Source of the DNA: a phage
Length of the DNA stretch: 64,000 nt
Strand: one strand, 5' to 3'
Sequence record: NC_101835.1
The notes under the pieces are model-generated. The model worked only from the letters and a program-made list of their open reading frames with translations. It had not been told where the DNA came from and made no database searches. A program made the position numbers and the translations under genes. Within the stretch, counting starts at the first letter, position 1. Every line of letters begins with the position of its first letter. Of this stretch, positions 8,991-55,819 are shown piece after piece.

Positions 8991-9077
8991 TGGTGGGGAG
9001 TGGTGGAGTCGAACCACCCGAGTCGCAATGACAATAGATTTACAGTCTACACCGCTACCTCTACGGGATAACTCCCC
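8991..9077 (-). tRNA. tRNA-Tyr (anticodon GTA), type II
   Basis: 87 nt, acceptor GGGGAGT/ACTCCCC, anticodon loop CTGTAAA, long variable arm, T-arm GTGG-TTCGACT-CCAC, encoded CCA. Confidence 0.75.
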
Positions 9078-9081
9078 AATT

Positions 9082-9156
9082 TGGCACCCCGTACTGGACT
9101 CGAACCAGTGTCAACGGCTTAGAAGGCCGCTGCTTTATCCACTAAGCTAACAGGGC
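9082..9156 (-). tRNA. tRNA-Arg (anticodon TCT)
   Basis: 75 nt, acceptor GCCCTGT/ACGGGGT (two G-U), D-arm GCTT-AGTGGATA-AAGC, anticodon loop CTTCTAA, T-arm ACTGG-TTCGAGT-CCAGT, encoded CCA. Confidence 0.75.
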
Positions 9157-9591: not shown

Positions 9592-9935
9592 GTTTCCTCC
9601 ATTATCACGTGATAGGTGGATTTTATCATAGCAAATACTGATTGTCAAGTTCGCCGCAGGGTGGTATTCCCTGCGACTTGTCCAGCGTCCTGGACCAGCA
9701 AGACCCAACAAGTGGGTTACCAGAGCCCATTACCGCACTTTGGCTCGACCTTATTACAGGTTGGCCGGGGTCACATCGTCATGTGCTGGCTGCCCCTACC
9801 ATTTTAAGTGTGGTGCACTATCAAGCCCTCTAAGGGGAACTCAGCCTTCTCCGAACCCTGTTTCAAAGCATCCGGAGATAAAGCCATCAAATTCATCTTT
9901 AAATTGGATATTCATCATGATACACGAAAACAACC

Positions 9936-10254: not shown

Positions 10255-10464
10255 TCAACAGATTCCGGCCTTATCCTTCCTGTCTGCGTATTCTTTAATC
10301 GCAACCTCATCTGCATTAGTGACAAGGTCTTCAAAGTAACTCTCAAGCTCCTCGTCAATGTCAGGAGACCAGCTCTTTTTCCTGTCAGTGTGAATTGCAG
10401 ACTTGTTGAACTTATTACAGTTCTTTGCTACCGGGTTGTTCATTAAGCGCTCCTCAGCGTTCAT
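10255..10464 (-). CDS. hypothetical protein (69 aa)
   Basis: ORF on the local gene strand, overlaps stop of upstream gene. Confidence 0.3.
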   Translation of the reverse strand: MNAEERLMNNPVAKNCNKFNKSAIHTDRKKSWSPDIDEELESYFEDLVTNADEVAIKEYADRKDKAGIC

Positions 10465-11032
10465 AGTAAATCTTATTTAACATTACCTCATCCTTTGCAG
10501 AAAGGATATCAAGATATGCATCACCAAATCTTCCTGCAACAACCTCTGCATGATACATCACTTCGTTAACATCGTCAAGAGTGATAACCGGATGACCATA
10601 TCTTTCTGAATATTGTCTCAGGGTGCGATGTAACGAGTCGTCATCATATGCAGACTTTTTAATATCACAAACACGACGAATAGCCTTGATGTCGAAAAAA
10701 CCTGTGCGATACCACCCAAGAAAAAGGTTTCGTGCAGTGTCAACATCTACATTGATACCATCAAGAACCTTATCTACAAGATAGCTGTCATCCTTTGGAC
10801 CAGCGTCCTTAGTGCGAATGTAGTTGCCATCTTTTCCAGGCGACATCTCCTTCTCATCCCCAACCTGCATGCCATCATTTGGCGGTGTTAGCCACTTATC
10901 CGGATGCTTACGATCACGAGCGTTAGAATGATTACGCTGGAAACCGGGCTTCCACTTGAAAGTTTTCTCCATCTGTTCTTCATTCTGATAACGTTTTGCA
11001 ATCTTTTCACGGTCATCTTTGCGTGAACCCAT
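10454..11032 (-). CDS. hypothetical protein (192 aa)
   Basis: ATG preceded by GAGGAGG RBS. Confidence 0.45.
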   Translation of the reverse strand: MGSRKDDREKIAKRYQNEEQMEKTFKWKPGFQRNHSNARDRKHPDKWLTPPNDGMQVGDEKEMSPGKDGNYIRTKDAGPKDDSYLVDKVLDGINVDVDTARNLFLGWYRTGFFDIKAIRRVCDIKKSAYDDDSLHRTLRQYSERYGHPVITLDDVNEVMYHAEVVAGRFGDAYLDILSAKDEVMLNKIYYER

Positions 11033-11537
11033 AGCTGCCTCCTCTTCAAGTTATAGAAAAACTCACTGTATCGCTTTGTAACGAGCTTTTCTATCAAACT
11101 GGTGCGATTGCATTACCTGGTATAGTTTATATAGCTGTGGAGCGATTTAGGGGCCTTCTTGTCAGTTTCCACACATAAACTTCATCCAAGCTCGCGCGGG
11201 AGACTCTCAACCGACTCCTTACGGCGCTGGCAAGCTTTCGTCGGTGGTCCACATCAGTGCTCGGCCTTTGGCCTGCGCTATCGCTTCGCTCCCACACATG
11301 TTAACAGACCTGTATGTATGAACTTCTGTTATTGTGTGCACCAAAGAGGCCCGGCATCTCGCCCCTCGTAGGCGAGTGCCAATGAAGGGCCGACACTGCC
11401 CATAGTAAGTAATAAATTTAAAACATGGTACTTAGGATCTAGTATATTCTACATAAGTTAAGTATATGTACTTAGTACCATAAGTACTAGATCTTTTATT
11501 TTTTATTATTTAGTTATTTTAGTTATATTCTTTATGT

Positions 11538-11575
11538 GTCCGCGTGACGGACAGTAGTGTCCGTATCACGGACAG
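11538..11575. promoter_or_regulatory. tandem palindromic sites GTCCG-N5-CGGAC (x2, 21-bp register), candidate operator or alternative hairpins
   Basis: gtccgcgtgacggacag and gtccgtatcacggacag in intergenic DNA. Confidence 0.35.
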
Positions 11576-11649
11576 TTACTAACCTCTGTTCCAGAGCGAA
11601 CATAAAACATACGAATCCTTATAGTACAGATATTTAAGTTTTTACTGGT

Positions 11650-12000
11650 CTAACCAGTTGTTGACATTCGAATAACTTCTTCTGGTGGCAAAACTTTGGA
11701 AAATGTGCATCTTTTACCTCTCCCTTGTGTGGATATTTCAACCACTCCCGCACATTCTAAAGTTTTAACGCACGCTGCTGCTTTTGTTTTCTTTATTCCA
11801 ACATCTGCTGCAATTTTCCTTGTGCTGGGTGTGAAGCGTGAACTTCCTCCAAGCTTATACCAGTTGTGCAGGTAGCAGTATACGATCTTGTCATACAAGT
11901 CAAGAACAACAACCTCCCCAGTTGTGTCATTCAAAACTTTTGACATAGATAGTATTTCAAGGGGGACTTTAAGATATAGCAGCTTATCCCCATCTTTCAT
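11650..12000 (-). CDS. hypothetical protein, possible DNA-binding (116 aa)
   Basis: AGGAG RBS; basic C-terminal half. Confidence 0.4.
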   Translation of the reverse strand: MKDGDKLLYLKVPLEILSMSKVLNDTTGEVVVLDLYDKIVYCYLHNWYKLGGSSRFTPSTRKIAADVGIKKTKAAACVKTLECAGVVEISTQGRGKRCTFSKVLPPEEVIRMSTTG

Positions 12001-12047
12001 ATCTCCTGATTCTCCTTGTGTGGCAATTTTCTTTAAAATAGCAGGGA

Positions 12048-12602
12048 TTACTCCCCGCTGTCAATAGCAAAACTCATTGCAATACGGTATGCCTCTTCTA
12101 ATGGTAAGAGTCTCCCCCACACATCCCAACCGACATCAAACTGTCTGCCAAACAACTGTTGTGTGGTTCCGTGAGCATGACCGAACAGTTGGACTGATCC
12201 GTGAGGCTTTCTGTTCCACTTTGCAAACTGGTAATGGCTCATACAGATCAAATTCTTGTTGTGGCGAAGCTCGTAATAATCTACAACCTCATGACCGAAC
12301 TCTTTCATAATTCTGACAGTCGTCCTTGTGTCATGGTTGCCACGAACAAGAATAATATGTCCGTTCAACATATTTAGAACATCTGGGAGCAATTTGTTGA
12401 TATTCTTATCATTAGTGCACGCAATATCTCCCAAGTGAAACACAGTGTCTGCAGGTGACACAACAGAGTTCCACTTGGTGATGATTCCCGCATTCATACT
12501 GTCAAGATTGTGATCATACTGAGATCTGTGTTTTTGACATGAATCGAACTCCATGACCCGCTGGTGGAGAAAGTGTGTGTCGCTTGTTACAAAGTATTTC
12601 AT
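12048..12602 (-). CDS. calcineurin-like metallophosphoesterase (candidate RNA 3'-end healing phosphatase)
   Basis: Motifs VTSDTHF, GDI, GNHD; start taken at internal MKYFV; directly downstream of P-loop kinase. Confidence 0.6.
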   Translation of the reverse strand: MKYFVTSDTHFLHQRVMEFDSCQKHRSQYDHNLDSMNAGIITKWNSVVSPADTVFHLGDIACTNDKNINKLLPDVLNMLNGHIILVRGNHDTRTTVRIMKEFGHEVVDYYELRHNKNLICMSHYQFAKWNRKPHGSVQLFGHAHGTTQQLFGRQFDVGWDVWGRLLPLEEAYRIAMSFAIDSGE

Positions 12603-13120: not shown

Positions 13121-14056
13121 ATGACAAATGAGGAACGCATGATGAAGTATTTTAATGCAGACGACCTAGTTGACAAAGGTCTTGTAACCAGCAGATATTA
13201 CCCAGATCTTGGATTAAAGATCTATAAATATGCCAGAAAAGTATTTTACAACAATTTATGGCATTTGTCTCCTCGTTTGCTGGAGTGCCGAGGCATTGTT
13301 GTAGGTAATGAAGGGAATGTTGTGGCATGGCCCTTCACAAAAGTGTTTAACTTGGGAGAAAACTCCACCAACCTGCCTGACAATAAGCTTGTGACGGCGG
13401 TAGAGAAAAAGAACGGATTCCTTGGTGTGGTATCATCTCATAAAGGTGACCTATTGTTCTCAACAACCGGGTCTCTTGATTCTCCATATTGTAACCTTGC
13501 AAAGGAAACCATCCAAGAGCAATGTGGTAATTTAGATCTTATCAAGAAGGTTATGGGCAATGAAAACATGACATTCATGTTTGAAATTTGTCACCCTTCA
13601 GATCCGCATATTGTTCAAGAAGACCATGGCGCATATTTGATAGGTTGCAGATATAATGATTCTGGAATAATGCTACCAGAAGCAGCTTTAGATGGGATTG
13701 CCAAATACCTTGGTGCAAAACGTCCTCACACTGTGCGTGAAATCCCGTTCAGCTATGCAAAAGAATTAGCTGCAGAAACAAGGGGCGAAGGGTATATGAT
13801 CCGTAAGCCTTACTACCCTTATGACCTGCAGCTGAAGATCAAGTCTCCATACTATTTGGCACGGAAGGCCGTAATGAGAGGTAAAGCATGGAAGATTTGG
13901 GATGACGATATTTTTAAACGTGTTGACGAGGAGTTTTACGGTATGGTAAAATTTATTCGTAGCAACTATACAGAAGATGTGTGGAATTGCTTATTAGAGC
14001 AGGAGCGTCGCGAGATACTGGACTGCTATTTCCACAACGAGGACTATATGCAATGA
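13121..14056 (+). CDS. rnlA: RNA ligase 1 (T4 RnlA-like)
   Basis: Recalled similarity to T4 Rnl1: LLECRGIVV, KVFNLGEN, nucleotidyltransferase motif I KKNG. Confidence 0.7.
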   Translation: MTNEERMMKYFNADDLVDKGLVTSRYYPDLGLKIYKYARKVFYNNLWHLSPRLLECRGIVVGNEGNVVAWPFTKVFNLGENSTNLPDNKLVTAVEKKNGFLGVVSSHKGDLLFSTTGSLDSPYCNLAKETIQEQCGNLDLIKKVMGNENMTFMFEICHPSDPHIVQEDHGAYLIGCRYNDSGIMLPEAALDGIAKYLGAKRPHTVREIPFSYAKELAAETRGEGYMIRKPYYPYDLQLKIKSPYYLARKAVMRGKAWKIWDDDIFKRVDEEFYGMVKFIRSNYTEDVWNCLLEQERREILDCYFHNEDYMQ

Positions 14057-52877: not shown

Positions 52878-53219
52878 CACACAATTAGCTGCCCGGCTAA
52901 AGTGCTGGAAGCACCTATAACACATCTTTCAACTAAATTTCCTACCACCACAATCACTTACCTCCCACACATGACTGTTTGCTTGTTTAGTGAGCAGTCA
53001 TGCCTTGACATTCTTGCCTATCCTGATAAAATTAAGTTCTTCTCTTTTCTTTTACCGAGTAATTCGGGTTTTCTGTTCTCTTCGGTTTGAAGGGGTATGG
53101 AGATACACCTGAGTGAACAGGGTGAACAACCGAACCTTTGGCTATGGCATTAGCATGGCGAAGCGGACGGGTGACGAAAGAGGGGCCGGAGGACACCAGT
53201 CACTGCCATATGATATATG

Positions 53220-53800
53220 GGTGATAACCTGAAGAGTCTGAATAAGTGTTTAAGTACCAGTCAGAGGAAAAGGTGAATGGTAGCCGAAGGGGGGAGGGGG
53301 GTTTCTTGTATCTTTAATTTGTATATTATGTATACACTTGTAAACCAATCTAATCTGAATCTGTTTACCACACAAAGCGGATAGAGACAAATATTGCCTA
53401 TTAAACTTGAATTATTTATAGAAAATACCACAACACTACTTAAGTCTTTGATTTTACACACAAATCCTGCAGATATTCACCCTCCATATTTAACATACTT
53501 GTAACATATTCCATACTCTACCTGCCCGATCAATTCACCCAACTACATCCCCATATTTTCCCTGTCTGTACTACCCCTGCCCCGCCGGGAGTCCCATCAT
53601 ATCTGGCTTTCCAGCAAATATCACACCCACAAATATCATTGCCTGAAGAGGGTTTCATCCCATAATACCTGCCTTACCTGAAGAGCGCTTCATACACCAC
53701 GTAAATTTTTTAATTGACCTCCCCCTGCCCCGCCGGAGAGGTTGGCTTTTCCCACACAGACCTGAAGAGTCAGCCAGAAATATCTGAATAGGCCCAATTC
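53220..53800. repeat. dispersed direct repeats in non-coding region (CCTGAAGAG x4; CCCTGCCCCGCCGG x2)
   Basis: CCTGAAGAG at ~53226, 53643, 53677, 53761; CCCTGCCCCGCCGG at ~53573 and ~53722. Confidence 0.5.
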
Positions 53801-54339
53801 TACCACGATTTTGACCTGACCTACAGGGAGGCCCGAAGGGTCTAGCTTTCAGCTAGAGTCCTTGCAGGACCTACAGGAGCGCTGCCAGGCGGACGGAATG
53901 GGAATACTTCTCATTCTTATAACAATTCTCAAATATCGAGGCAGTGAGAGAAATTAATAGGCCAGGCCGTTCACACAGTGGCACAACATTTGCAACCTAT
54001 TTTGTGTGGATGAATGAGAATACCTATCATTATGAGAATAGTTATCATTACTGGCAATTTAACATAATACCCATTATGCGCACCACTGGCGATCCATACA
54101 GGGATTGATAACATGAGTTACTGTTTACGCATATAACAATTATATTTATTACTATTTGTGTTGGGTATAGTTAGCAGCCGATAGATTAGATATTGACCTG
54201 CAGACTTCCAACTGTCTAGACGTCTAAACGCCCACACAGCAAGGATTATACATACACAACTGAATGTAAACAGGGCCGCAAAAATGCTACCATACCAGAT
54301 TGTAAATTTTTCATGCAGCACTTGACAAAGAGGAGGAAA

Positions 54340-54760
54340 ACTTGTCTGACATACTGTGACATAATATGACATAATAGTGACACACTGGGCATACTCAACA
54401 CTGGATACAATAACAATTGTTACTATTGCATGCCTCACTGTTCACGCATAGATGATAAGCCATGCCATTCGTTTGCATGACAATAATTAACTTGTTTACA
54501 ATCTTTCACTGGCTATGCCAGGTGACCTTTGGTCACCCCTTCGGGTGTTTCTATGACATAATATAAAAGCAGGGCAACTATTAGAAGATCTATAGTTGCC
54601 TTGCTTGTTATGTCATGATTAACTAAATACAAGGCAACTATGATCTGATTAATAGATTGCAGACAAACTATCACGGGGGTGATGGTTACTGCTTTTATAT
54701 TATGTCGCGACTCCGTCGCGCCATGCCATTCGTTTGCATAGTTGCCTTATTGTTACAGGT
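54340..54760. repeat. iteron/palindrome cluster, candidate replication origin or regulatory hub
   Basis: Tandem TGACATAAT-type 10-bp repeats (~54343-54375) plus inverted copies near 54553 and 54688; 20-bp direct repeat CCATGCCATTCGTTTGCAT at 54462 and 54722; palindrome GGCAACTAT...ATAGTTGCC. Confidence 0.5.
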
Positions 54761-55350
54761 AAAATAATTACATTATTAATTATTTCTTATCTTTCTCTTA
54801 GTCATCTAATGATTCCAGTCAGTATAGTAATGTACAGTAAACATTAGACGACTAAATATTTCTCTGTTTATGATAACTCACCGTGACAATTTCGGACTGT
54901 TTACGAAAAATGTTGACACCTAAGCTGATTTATGTTATGCAGTTTACACGAATAATTATTTTATGCAGGTATTGACTATTCCGTTATTCTGTGGTTGGAA
55001 TAAATACTTTGCAGGCTATAGAATGGCGTGCGTACATGAATTCTGAGATCTGGCGGCTATAGTTATACTCGATTTTTCACGTAGAACACGCTTTTTAGTT
55101 TGTGTAAGTGTATGACTTATAAGAATTTTTACTTGTTGACAAGATATTGAAGATCTGCATCAGGTTAAAATTTGTGCAATAGCTGCATTACGTGCAATTT
55201 TGGAAGGGAAAACGGGTAAAAATAGCCCTGCTACCACACAATGAAAAGTTATGCAATAGTTATTTTACATGTATATTTGTACAGTGTGTGGGGTTGATGG
55301 CTCGTCAATTATTCCACTTGCCAGGTAGGGCCGTTTATGGTAGGAGAAGA

Positions 55351-55380
55351 GCAGACAAAAAGAAAGGGGCCTAAGCCCCT
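55351..55380 (-). terminator. rho-independent terminator for minus-strand block (possibly bidirectional)
   Basis: AGGGGC-ctaa-GCCCCT hairpin; T-run on minus strand after the stop of gene 55400..55819. Confidence 0.5.
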
Positions 55381-55399
55381 TGATAATTCAGTTAAAAAA

Positions 55400-55819
55400 T
55401 TATAATGATTCGTATATTTCAAAAATCCGATTTGCCAGGTCGTTACGGTAGCGGAATTTTTCCTCACGTTTGATCATAAGATCTTTATAGCCGTACTCTT
55501 TAAGCACTTCATTAACTTTATGGCGGCATACTTTCATATTATCCTGCGCGTCACCAATAAATCTGTTGCTATGGTGCATGGCTTTAATTTCTTCTTCCAG
55601 GACCAGGGCAACTATGCGGACCGGATCAAGCTGATAGGCGGTAACATCCATGCGGCATTGTAAACGGCTTTTTACGTCTGCCACCGGATATACTGCAACC
55701 TCTTCCCCGTCAACATTGACAATAATTAGTTTACCATCGATTTCGAATCCTTTCGCCGCCGGACCGTGACAAAAAGCGTTATCAAAGCTATATGCCGGAT
55801 TATTAGATTTAATGTTCAT
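55400..55819 (-). CDS. hypothetical protein (139 aa)
   Basis: AAGAGGTAAA RBS. Confidence 0.45.
   Translation of the reverse strand: MNIKSNNPAYSFDNAFCHGPAAKGFEIDGKLIIVNVDGEEVAVYPVADVKSRLQCRMDVTAYQLDPVRIVALVLEEEIKAMHHSNRFIGDAQDNMKVCRHKVNEVLKEYGYKDLMIKREEKFRYRNDLANRIFEIYESL

What the first reader, a model, noticed from the sequence alone, without database searches (positions are those of the whole stretch)
11040..11650. Non-coding island: GC-rich segment, AT-rich palindromes and a tandem palindromic site pair
Between two minus-strand genes lies ~600 nt without a convincing ORF: a GC-rich stretch (~11140-11400) unlike the flanking composition, an AT-rich region with inverted repeats (~11430-11500), and two copies of GTCCG-N5-CGGAC spaced at 21 bp (11538-11575), which could be a dimer operator pair or alternative RNA hairpins.
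Basis: seen in the sequence. Interest (0 to 1): 0.45.

Follow-up and report, generated by a model that had tools for sequence, protein, structure and literature searches.

The report
Origin-like region shared with satellite plasmids
A conserved 600-base gene-free stretch of an rV5-like E. coli phage is built like a plasmid-type replication origin (protein-binding repeats, an AT-rich block that should melt easily, and a string of conserved hairpins). Two of its hairpin modules recur in small E. coli plasmids that carry phage head and tail genes, which hints at a helper-satellite link.

Summary
Window 11033-11649 lies in a Vequintavirus (rV5-like) genome and has no credible gene. It holds a GC-rich block, a 25%-GC block with inverted repeats, and two perfect TGTCCG-N5-CGGACA sites 21 bp apart. 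Relatives carry four such sites; the window has lost 43 bp.

The sites look like protein-binding sites rather than hairpins. Half-sites are conserved, the N5 spacer varies freely, and changes are one-sided. The adjacent 116-aa winged-helix protein is homologous (hhalign 97%) to the N-terminal domain of the Rep-like protein of 13-14 kb E. coli plasmids, whose iterons are also dyad sites with a 23-bp period.

The GC-rich block is a string of hairpin modules, several followed by CCACA-type motifs. Two modules recur at about 85% identity in those plasmids, with only compensatory stem changes, and sit on the same side of an AT-rich segment and iteron array. The plasmids encode Vequintavirus-like tail proteins, so they are candidate satellites.

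My best reading is an iteron-type replication origin or control region with a new structured flank, acting as single-stranded DNA priming signals or an origin-proximal RNA. Function is inferred, not shown. No Rfam family or published description was found.

The parts
11650..12000 (-). Gene for a 116-aa winged-helix protein (HTH_36/DUF6945; rV5 ORF79). It is the presumed binder of the dyad sites. A sigma-70-like promoter lies at 12064-12035(-).
   Evidence: The protein is confined to Vequintavirus. It is homologous to the N-terminal domain of the plasmid Rep-like proteins (hhalign 97.1%, E 6e-11).
11536..11576 (.). Two dyad-symmetric 17-bp sites, TGTCCG-N5-CGGACA, at 11537-11553 and 11558-11574 with a 21-bp period. 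They are the remnant of a four-site array.
11400..11535 (.). AT-rich block (25% GC). It contains two GATC sites, GATCTTTTATTTT at 11490-11502 (matching the oriC 13-mer consensus), interleaved inverted repeats, and TAAGTA-type heptamers. It is a candidate DNA-unwinding element.
   Evidence: Diversity among phages is 3.4%, lower than in the flanking genes.
11344..11399 (+). Hairpin module 'unit 4'. The outer helix pairs 11348-11352 with 11387-11391. The inner 10-bp helix pairs 11353-11363 with 11371-11380. The 3' flank is CCGACACT.
   Evidence: Unit 4 is shared with plasmids at 87% identity. All 15 pairs are paired in 5 distinct sequences, and 3 pairs changed on both sides.
11300..11343 (+). Hairpin 'unit 3' (AACAGA...TCTGTT). 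It is variable, and rV5 and Murica carry an 18-nt deletion within it, so it is dispensable.
   Evidence: 22% diversity.
11255..11299 (+). Hairpin 'unit 2' (GGCC-TTT-GGCC inside AGTGC/GCGCT), ending in CCCACACA (CCACACA at 11292-11298).
11186..11254 (+). Module 1. It comprises the conserved CGCGCGGGAG (11193-11202), helix H1 (11210-11215 paired with 11240-11245) enclosing an invariant 24-nt loop, and a 3' flank GGTCCACAT (11246-11254).
   Evidence: Module 1 is shared with plasmids at 84% identity. Three different fully Watson-Crick versions of H1 occur. It is the lowest-diversity segment, at 2.9%.
11033..11185 (.). Variable spacer upstream of the 192-aa gene. It contains an inverted repeat (11053-11064 with 11083-11094) and CCACACA at 11169-11175.
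10454..11032 (-). Downstream neighbour: a 192-aa protein of unknown function (PHROG 12226). It is the first gene before the tRNA, lysis, terminase and structural genes.

Best explanation
The island is a conserved cis-acting region of Vequintavirus built like an iteron-type (lambda or plasmid-like) origin of replication. Inferred mechanism: dimers of the adjacent 116-aa winged-helix protein bind the array of dyad sites, which sit about two helical turns apart. There are four sites in most phages and two in this window. The resulting nucleoprotein complex destabilises the adjoining, nearly invariant AT-rich block. On the far side of that block lies the GC-rich string of hairpin modules. Once single-stranded, its top strand (the CCACACA strand) folds into hairpins followed by CCACA-type tails. 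These would act as priming or loading signals for the outward leading strand, comparable to ssi signals. Alternatively, they are transcribed towards the origin as a structured RNA. The same modules and the same order (modules, then AT-rich element, then dyad iterons, with a homologous winged-helix Rep-like gene nearby) occur in 13-14 kb E. coli plasmids that carry Vequintavirus-like tail genes. Shown here: the anatomy, the conservation, the compensatory changes, the protein homology and the shared architecture. Inferred: protein binding, DNA melting, origin function, and whether the hairpins act as DNA or RNA.
For: (1) The sites behave like protein sites: conserved half-sites, free spacer, fixed period, and copy number 2-4. 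They occur nowhere else in the 64-kb window. (2) The neighbouring protein is an HTH_36 winged helix. It is homologous to residues 33-103 of the plasmid Rep-like proteins (hhalign 97.1%, E 6e-11). Those plasmid proteins give weak hits to PHROG replication-initiator families, including an O-like one. (3) The plasmid iterons are also dyad sites, with a 23-nt period, and they differ between plasmids. (4) The AT-rich block holds the only perfect GATCTnTTnTTTT match in the window plus two GATC sites. It is more conserved (3.4% diversity) than the flanking genes (4.6-5.5%). (5) Module 1 and unit 4 are shared with the plasmids at 84-87% identity, and every stem change is compensated. In plasmids they sit between the rep operon and a GATCTATT x3 segment plus iterons. 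(6) CCACACA motifs point towards the AT-rich/iteron centre from both sides, in the phage and in plasmids. (7) All five G.T pairs in the counted stems lie on the top strand. Six of 12 loops in the related three-hairpin modules are C-GNA-G triloops on that strand. Such mini-hairpins occur in the G4 origin, in RSF1010 ssiA (CCGAAGG) and in N4 hairpin promoters (PMC13037366). (8) As single-stranded DNA the top strand folds better than shuffled sequence (z -2.46). (9) The rV5 origin has never been defined (PMC3606486).
Against: There is no functional data of any kind. The 116-aa protein has only the DNA-binding domain; no partner-recruiting domain like the C-terminal half of the plasmid protein is present. 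It could therefore be a pure regulator. The phage replication genes lie about 60 kb away. GC skew gives no independent origin signal here, because skew follows transcription direction. A phage with only two sites is apparently viable, unless the window is an assembly collapse. The 2.5-kb non-coding region at 52.9-55.4 kb also has repeats and converging CCACACA motifs, so it is an alternative or second origin. The strand evidence is thin: five G.T pairs against one A.C. The CCACA tail is not invariant; one metagenomic phage has CCCGCAT. CCACACA also occurs in 5' UTRs of ordinary genes, which a priming-signal role does not explain.
Confidence: 0.45

Rival explanations
1. The region controls transcription of the long rightward-to-leftward operon (192-aa gene, tRNAs, lysis, terminase, structural genes). 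The winged-helix protein would act as repressor or activator at the dyad array. A non-sigma-70 (late-type) promoter would lie in the AT-rich block. The GC-rich part would be a structured 5' leader on the minus strand, for example for attenuation or antitermination.
For: The island sits exactly between early-type genes (kinase, phosphoesterase, HTH) and the tRNA, terminase and structural block on the same strand. The rV5 paper reports a T4-late-like motif TggTAaAAtA upstream of late genes, and TAAAATA-like strings occur on the minus strand at 11510-11530. Palindromic sites are typical of repressors. Unit 4 read on the minus strand is a strong GC hairpin followed by UCUUUGG.
Against: No sigma-70 promoter or intrinsic terminator is found in 11033-11650 on either strand. 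G.T pairs and GNA loops favour the plus strand, which is antisense to the operon. In the plasmids the sigma-70-like promoter of the rep operon (12088-12060) lies between the shared modules and the operon, so there the modules are not its leader. Four sites at a two-turn period next to a 130-bp AT-rich block is more than an operator needs.
Confidence: 0.25
2. The GC-rich block is a free-standing structured non-coding RNA gene on either strand. Its function would be unrelated to replication, for example a decoy or sponge, or an RNA that mediates cross-talk between the phage and the satellite-like plasmids. The hairpin units might be released by cleavage at the CCACACA linkers.
For: Compensatory changes preserve the helices. 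The architecture is modular, with units delimited by CCCACACA and shuffled between plasmids. In plasmid NZ_CP020521 a weak plus-strand promoter (12071-12098) and a terminator-like C/G hairpin (13180-13202) bracket the modules. Phages are known to carry large structured RNAs near tRNA genes (own knowledge: GOLLD, ROOL). An rV5-like phage, PhiTE, carries a pseudo-ToxI RNA locus (PMC3475682).
Against: No Rfam match appears at any threshold. No promoter or terminator is recognisable around the phage copy. Folding z-scores as RNA are modest, at -1.8 to -1.9. GNA triloops are more typical of DNA hairpins. No expression data exist.
Confidence: 0.17
3. The shared modules are a packaging (pac) or recombination signal that the plasmids copy so that the helper phage terminase packages them.
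For: The plasmids have capsid and tail genes but no terminase or portal gene, so they need a helper's packaging machinery. The locus is about 4 kb upstream of the terminase gene.
Against: A double-stranded pac site would not require compensatory stem changes. Several plasmids lack module 1, unit 4 or both. The modules sit in the plasmids' replication region.
Confidence: 0.06
4. The GC-rich block encodes a small protein, as annotated in rV5 (ORF78) and as two or three short CDSs in some other records.
For: The 56-aa ORF at 11127..11297(-) is open in all 10 phages examined, and Murica's 3-nt deletion keeps it in frame. It is annotated in rV5 and in some other records.
Against: Substitutions in that frame are mostly non-synonymous: 1-2 synonymous against 5-10 non-synonymous in four comparisons, and 5 against 8 in Aya. 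They fall equally on codon positions 1, 2 and 3. The start codon is GTG with no ribosome-binding site. The homologous plasmid segments are not in any ORF. Stem changes are compensatory. Few stop codons are expected in GC-rich sequence anyway.
Confidence: 0.03

Closest known systems
Bacteriophage lambda ori (four dyad-symmetric iterons bound by dimers of the winged-helix N-terminal domain of O protein, next to a roughly 40-bp AT-rich region). Comparison from own knowledge.
   Same: Both have four repeats that are each internally dyad-symmetric, at a spacing of about two helical turns. Both have an AT-rich block directly adjacent and a small winged-helix DNA-binding module encoded at the locus. 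The plasmid homologue gives a weak hit to the PHROG family 'replication initiation O-like'.
   Different: Lambda ori lies inside the O gene, and O has a C-terminal domain that recruits P-DnaB. Here the protein is 116 aa with the DNA-binding domain only, and the sites lie outside the gene. There is no detectable sequence similarity to O. A GC-rich hairpin array is attached.
Iteron-plasmid origins with a GC-rich or ssi flank: RK2 oriV (iterons, AT-rich 13-mers, GC-rich segment) and RSF1010 oriV (iterons, GC-rich, AT-rich, ssiA/ssiB hairpins on opposite strands). From own knowledge plus PMC13037366.
   Same: The order is the same: iterons, then AT-rich element, then GC-rich hairpin-forming segment. 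Hairpins carry CCGAAGG-type mini-hairpins, as in ssiA. Motif orientation flips across the origin, as with ssiA and ssiB.
   Different: There is no sequence similarity to ssiA or ssiB. The modules here are several, modular and followed by a CCACA-type tail. Their recognition factor is unknown. RSF1010 uses its own primase RepB', and no counterpart has been identified here.
G4-type single-strand initiation signals (three hairpins followed by the primase start site). From own knowledge.
   Same: The three-hairpin modules in the plasmids and at window 53821-53878 are three short hairpins in a row followed by a conserved single-stranded tail. GNA loops are frequent.
   Different: These modules are much shorter, about 45 nt against about 140 nt. 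No CTG start triplet is conserved. The island's own modules (module 1, unit 4) have a different shape.
ColE1 RNA II, a structured origin-proximal primer RNA. From own knowledge.
   Same: A structured element several hundred nucleotides long lies immediately upstream of the point where DNA would open. In one plasmid it is bracketed by a weak promoter and a terminator-like hairpin.
   Different: There is no Rfam RNAI or RNAII match. These replicons have iterons and a Rep-like protein, which ColE1 lacks.
Helper-satellite pairs that share cis elements, such as P2/P4 late promoters and ICP1/PLE. From own knowledge.
   Same: A small element with few genes shares short non-coding sequence and tail-protein homologues with a large lytic myovirus.
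   Different: These elements are autonomous plasmids, not integrated islands. They carry their own capsid, tape-measure and Dit-like genes. No mobilisation has been shown.

Membership tests
Iteron-type / lambda-type replication origin | Several initiator-binding repeats at a helical-repeat spacing | tested here: met
   Two sites in the window and four in most relatives, all TGTCCG-N5-CGGACA at 21/22 bp.
Iteron-type / lambda-type replication origin | AT-rich unwinding element directly adjacent to the repeats | tested here: met
   GC is 25% over 11400-11535. The only perfect GATCTnTTnTTTT match in the window lies at 11490-11502. Actual unwinding was not tested.
Iteron-type / lambda-type replication origin | Cognate initiator protein encoded at the locus | tested here: inconclusive
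   The 116-aa HTH_36 protein is homologous to the N-terminal domain of the plasmid Rep-like proteins. It lacks their C-terminal half. The 'replication initiation protein' label comes only from PHROG and RefSeq naming.
Iteron-type / lambda-type replication origin | Supports initiation of DNA replication | not testable with these tools
   This needs replication mapping or an autonomous-replication assay.
Repressor-operator control region | Palindromic sites overlapping or flanking a promoter | tested here: not met
   There is no sigma-70-like promoter in 11033-11650 on either strand; the nearest is at 12064-12035(-). Promoters of other types are not covered by the scan.
Known RNA families (Rfam 15) | Covariance-model match at or near the gathering score | tested here: not met
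   No hit appears in the island at gathering thresholds. At E<=10 only far sub-threshold chance matches appear, such as rli43 at 22.9 bits against a threshold of 100. The plasmid copies and the second non-coding region also give nothing.
Single-strand initiation (ssi) signals (G4-type / RSF1010 ssiA-type) | Stable hairpins on one defined strand next to an origin | tested here: met
   Helices are preserved by compensation. G.T pairs and GNA loops favour the top strand. The DNA fold gives z -2.46. The modules lie next to the AT-rich element in both phage and plasmids.
Single-strand initiation (ssi) signals (G4-type / RSF1010 ssiA-type) | Primase- or PriA-dependent priming on single-stranded DNA | not testable with these tools
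   This needs an M13 origin-deletion complementation assay or an in vitro priming assay.
Protein-coding gene (rV5 ORF78) | Purifying selection at the amino-acid level | tested here: not met
   Changes are mostly non-synonymous with no third-position bias.
Intrinsic terminator | GC-rich hairpin followed by a T-run | tested here: not met
   No terminator-like site is found in 10900-12100.
Type III toxin-antitoxin antitoxin RNA / pseudo-ToxI (known in rV5-like phage PhiTE) | Tandem identical repeats of about 36 nt resembling ToxI | tested here: not met
   The repeats here have a 21/22-bp period and are palindromic, with variable centres. There is no Rfam ToxI match.

The most novel reading that the evidence does not exclude
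Hairpin modules followed by a CCCACACA-type tail may be a previously undescribed class of cis-acting single-stranded DNA or RNA signal. It would be shared between Vequintavirus phages and an undescribed, common family of 13-14 kb E. coli plasmids that encode their own capsid, tape-measure and Dit-like proteins. The plasmids would be plasmid-borne satellites of rV5-like phages. They would use the shared modules either to tap the helper's replication or priming machinery or to sense infection.
Probability: 0.3. Interest if true: 0.8.

Novelty: new variant of a known kind. Interest (0 to 1): 0.55.

Why it matters
The replication origin of rV5-like phages, which are widely used as therapeutic and biocontrol phages, has never been located. 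This locus is a concrete and easily testable candidate. More interesting is the link to the plasmids. Two of its structured modules, a homologue of its binding protein and three tail proteins connect these phages to a common family of small E. coli plasmids with phage structural genes. I found no description of that family. If those plasmids are satellites, they would be a new type: plasmid-resident, and carrying their own capsid and tape-measure genes. The shared hairpin/CCACACA modules would then be the first handle on how the satellite and helper communicate.

Tried and rejected
- **Known RNA families.** Rfam scans at gathering and permissive thresholds found nothing on the window, the plasmids or the second non-coding region. 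ARAGORN finds tRNAs only at 8432-9156.
- **Coding.** ORF78 is rejected on its substitution pattern.
- **Pseudoknot in module 1.** I considered pairing of GGGAG with CTCC in the H1 loop. I dropped it because plasmid WTMG01000048 changes the 5' flank without changing the loop.
- **Long-range helix.** A pairing of 11256-11266 with 11387-11398 is predicted by the fold. It has no counterpart in the plasmids, and one phage SNP breaks it.
- **Palindromes as hairpins.** Rejected, because the changes are one-sided.
- **Host origin of the GC-rich block.** There are no E. coli chromosomal matches, only plasmid matches.
- **Collection scans.**
  - A 15-mer scan of IMG/VR returned only noise.
  - A gapped-pattern scan of IMG/VR returned zero hits.
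  - A 19-mer scan of 185,000 species genomes gave only chance hits in unrelated GC-rich taxa.
  - The metagenome scan found only 4 phage-type and 2 plasmid-type copies.
- **Structure prediction.** The AlphaFold single-sequence model of the 116-aa protein was too poor to use (pLDDT 43).
- **Remote homologues.** An HMMER search of 1.8 billion proteins found only weak HTH_36/DUF6945 relatives.
- **CCACACA polarity.** Genome-wide, CCACACA shows no simple replication-type polarity, only local convergence at two loci.
- **Second GC-rich gap.** Window 9600-9870 shows no structure signal (z -0.31).
- **Literature.** Searches found no description of the island, the motif or the plasmids.

Full report
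**Context.** The window comes from a Vequintavirus (rV5-like) E. coli myovirus. The stretch 10900-11800 matches 118 phage records at 88-99% identity. The finding lies between two minus-strand genes: a 192-aa protein of unknown function (10454-11032) and a 116-aa winged-helix protein (11650-12000). In the related phage pangalan, the same strand continues from a kinase, a phosphoesterase and the winged-helix gene through this gap. It then runs into the 192-aa gene, a tRNA cluster, lysis genes, the terminase gene and the structural genes. The rV5 genome paper states that the origin of replication could not be located. It describes only sigma-70-type promoters and mentions one 'non-coding' box elsewhere (PMC3606486).

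- GC rises to 0.54-0.60 at about 11150-11400 and falls to 0.25 at 11400-11550.
- The AT-rich part contains interleaved inverted repeats.
- Two perfect TGTCCG-N5-CGGACA sites start 21 bp apart, at 11537-11553 and 11558-11574. They are the only such sites in the 64-kb window.
- An alignment with seven relatives shows the window is the odd one out. Most phages have four sites at 21/22-bp spacing, one has three, and the window lacks exactly 43 bp. Further four-site arrays appear.

**It is not a gene.**
- A 56-aa ORF at 11127..11297(-), which is rV5 ORF78, stays open in ten phages.
- In that frame, non-synonymous changes outnumber synonymous ones: 5-10 against 1-2 in four comparisons, and 8 against 5 in Aya. 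Changes fall equally on all three codon positions.
- The start codon is GTG with no ribosome-binding site.
- The homologous plasmid sequence is not in any ORF.

**The dyad sites look like protein-binding sites.**
- Across phages the half-sites TG(T/C)CCG and CGGACA are kept.
- The five central bases vary freely: CGTGA, TATCA, TATTA, TGAGA, CTACG, CAATA.
- The T-to-C changes occur in one half-site only and are never compensated, which argues against a hairpin role.
- No sigma-70-like promoter overlaps the sites.
- The adjacent protein is an HTH_36/DUF6945 winged helix and is restricted to Vequintavirus.

**The AT-rich block is constrained.**
- Its diversity among nine phages is 3.4%, lower than in the flanking protein genes (4.6% and 5.5%).
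- Other parts of the gap are free to vary: 22% in unit 3 and 12.5% at 11577-11649.
- The block holds two GATC sites.
- It also holds GATCTTTTATTTT at 11490-11502, the only perfect match in the window to the E. coli oriC 13-mer consensus GATCTnTTnTTTT (the consensus is from my own knowledge).

**The GC-rich block is a string of hairpin modules.** On the plus strand I distinguish four units.
- Module 1 (11186-11254) is helix H1 around an invariant 24-nt loop, followed by GGTCCACAT.
- Unit 2 (11255-11299) ends in CCCACACA.
- Unit 3 (11300-11343) carries an 18-nt deletion in rV5 and Murica and is therefore dispensable.
- Unit 4 (11344-11399) has a 5-bp outer helix and a 10-bp inner helix, followed by CCGACACT.
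- No Rfam family matches at any threshold.

**Homologues on plasmids were the key lead.**
- The GC-rich block has no E. coli chromosomal match. It does match non-coding DNA of small circular E. coli plasmids of 13.2-13.7 kb, plus a 39.6-kb trimer.
- Module 1 is 84% identical and unit 4 is 87% identical to plasmid NZ_CP020521.
- Every difference that falls in a stem is compensated.
  - H1 is ACCGAC/GTCGGT in phages, GCTGCC/GGCAGC in most plasmids and GTCCGGAT/ATCCGGAC in two others. All three versions are fully Watson-Crick.
  - In unit 4, all 15 pairs are formed in 5 distinct sequences. Three pairs changed on both sides (G-C to U-A). Pairing is 100%, against 33-43% when the partner columns are slid by 1-3 positions.
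- A related 'three-hairpin' module flanked by CCCACACA in the plasmids has a covarying counterpart in the phage's other non-coding region, at 53821-53878.

**Phage and plasmids share an architecture.**
- In the plasmids the order is: rep operon, hairpin modules, a C/G hairpin, three GATCTATT repeats, then an array of iterons. The iterons are dyad-symmetric, with a 23-nt period and 5-6 copies, and differ between plasmids.
- In the phage the order is: hairpin modules, AT-rich block with GATC sites, dyad-site array, then the winged-helix gene.
- The phage protein family is homologous to residues 33-103 of the plasmid Rep-like proteins (profile-profile probability 97.1%, E 6e-11; pairwise E 4e-4).
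- Those plasmid proteins give weak hits to PHROG replication-initiator families, including an O-like one.
- The sigma-70-like promoter of the plasmid rep operon lies between the modules and the operon, so in the plasmids the modules are not its leader.

**The CCACACA motif.**
- It is about threefold over-represented in the window (27 against 8.7±2.9 expected) and about twelvefold in the plasmid (17 against 1.4).
- About half of the phage sites are in non-coding DNA.
- Around the island the motif is on the plus strand to the left (11169, 11292) and on the minus strand to the right (six of seven sites between 11732 and 14073).
- The same flip across the AT-rich/iteron centre is seen in plasmids.
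- A second flip occurs at 55234/55291 in the 2.5-kb non-coding region.
- The numbers are small, and some sites sit in ordinary 5' UTRs. I treat the motif as real but unexplained.

**Strand, and DNA versus RNA.**
- All five G.T pairs in the counted stems lie on the CCACACA (plus) strand. One terminal A.C occurs in two divergent phages.
- Six of twelve loops in the three-hairpin modules are C-GNA-G triloops on that strand, against one on the other strand. They include CCCGAAGGG.
- A 2026 review documents such mini-hairpins in the G4 complementary-strand origin, in RSF1010 ssiA (CCGAAGG) and in N4 hairpin promoters (PMC13037366).
- The plus strand folded as DNA gives z = -2.46. Folded as RNA the two strands give -1.9 and -1.8.
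- In one plasmid a weak plus-strand promoter and a terminator-like hairpin bracket the modules, so a plus-strand RNA running towards the origin is also possible.
- This question cannot be settled computationally.

**What the plasmids are.**
- Their capsid protein cluster has 441 member sequences. All named members are from E. coli, on contigs of 13.2-14.3 kb.
- They encode a capsid, a tape-measure protein, a Dit-like protein and a few small proteins. They have no terminase or portal gene.
- The Dit-like protein is 50% identical (E 2e-61) to a Vequintavirus protein encoded next to the phage tape-measure gene.
- A 152-aa protein is 45% identical (E 3e-34) to another structural-region protein.
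- The tape-measure protein is 25% identical.
- They are therefore relatives of rV5-like phages and plausible satellites. No description was found in the literature searched.

**Interpretation.** The best-supported reading is an iteron-type origin, or an origin-like control region. Dimers of the winged-helix protein would bind the dyad array, the AT-rich block would open, and the hairpin modules would act on the DUE-distal side. The modules would work either as single-stranded DNA priming or loading signals or as an origin-directed RNA. I put this at about 0.45. The rivals are:
- a transcriptional control region with a structured leader (0.25);
- an independent non-coding RNA (0.17);
- a packaging signal (0.06);
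- a small protein (0.03).

**What is shown and what is inferred.**
- Shown: sequence anatomy, conservation, covariation, protein homology and shared architecture.
- Inferred: every functional step.

Noticed in passing
Loci L006, L133-L137, L160-L163, L167, L169 (e.g. NZ_CP020521.1, CP134895.1, NZ_CP035869.1): A common family of 13-14 kb circular E. coli plasmids. They encode a major capsid protein, a tape-measure protein, a Dit-like protein, a Rep-like winged-helix protein and about 3-4.5 kb of structured non-coding DNA, but no terminase or portal. Three of their proteins are homologous to Vequintavirus tail-region proteins (50%, 45% and 25% identity). They are candidate plasmid-borne satellites of rV5-like phages, and I found no published description.
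   Followed up: partly
window 52880-55400: A 2.5-kb stretch with no ORF longer than 106 aa, lying between convergent gene blocks and conserved in Vequintavirus. It holds several strong sigma-70-like promoters, repeated ATGACATAAT and GGCAACTAT strings, a covarying three-hairpin module (53821-53878), short matches to the plasmids (54502-54552, 53914-53937), and a converging CCACACA pair around a 44-nt AT-rich spacer (55234/55291). It could be a second origin or a cluster of non-coding RNA genes.
   Followed up: partly
window-wide; plasmid L006: The heptamer CCACACA (often CCCACACA) is over-represented: 27 against 8.7 expected in the window, and 17 against 1.4 in the plasmid. It is concentrated in non-coding DNA, often directly after a hairpin or just upstream of a ribosome-binding site (e.g. 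12023-, 56591-, 61209-) or just after a -10 box (52212+). Its role is unknown.
   Followed up: partly
window 5636-6478 (-): A group I intron match that only just reaches the Rfam gathering score (50.3 against 50). By synteny with pangalan it lies in the region of the split 'large terminase' annotation.
   Followed up: no
window 8589-8687 (-): An unusual 99-nt tRNA-like gene within the tRNA cluster. ARAGORN calls a 4-base anticodon (atcc), Rfam scores it 35.5 bits, and pangalan annotates it as 'tRNA-OTHER'. It may contain an intron or be a frameshift-suppressor-like tRNA.
   Followed up: no
window 9600-9870: A second GC-rich (0.53-0.59) gap with no annotated gene, between a 112-aa gene and small ORFs. 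It has no Rfam hit, and its folding energy is no better than shuffled sequence (z -0.31).
   Followed up: yes
phage collection hits to window 10900-11800: Eighteen records named 'Campylobacter phage', with host given as C. jejuni, are 97-98% identical to E. coli rV5-like phages. PLSDB 'plasmid' CP057073.1 (137,565 bp) is evidently a Vequintavirus genome. Both look like mislabelled records.
   Followed up: no
L165 (ends 168 nt after the winged-helix gene) and L166 (ends 113 nt after it): Two independent Logan assemblies break inside or just past the dyad-site array. This suggests the repeats disturb assembly. The two-copy state of this window should therefore be checked against its reads.
   Followed up: no
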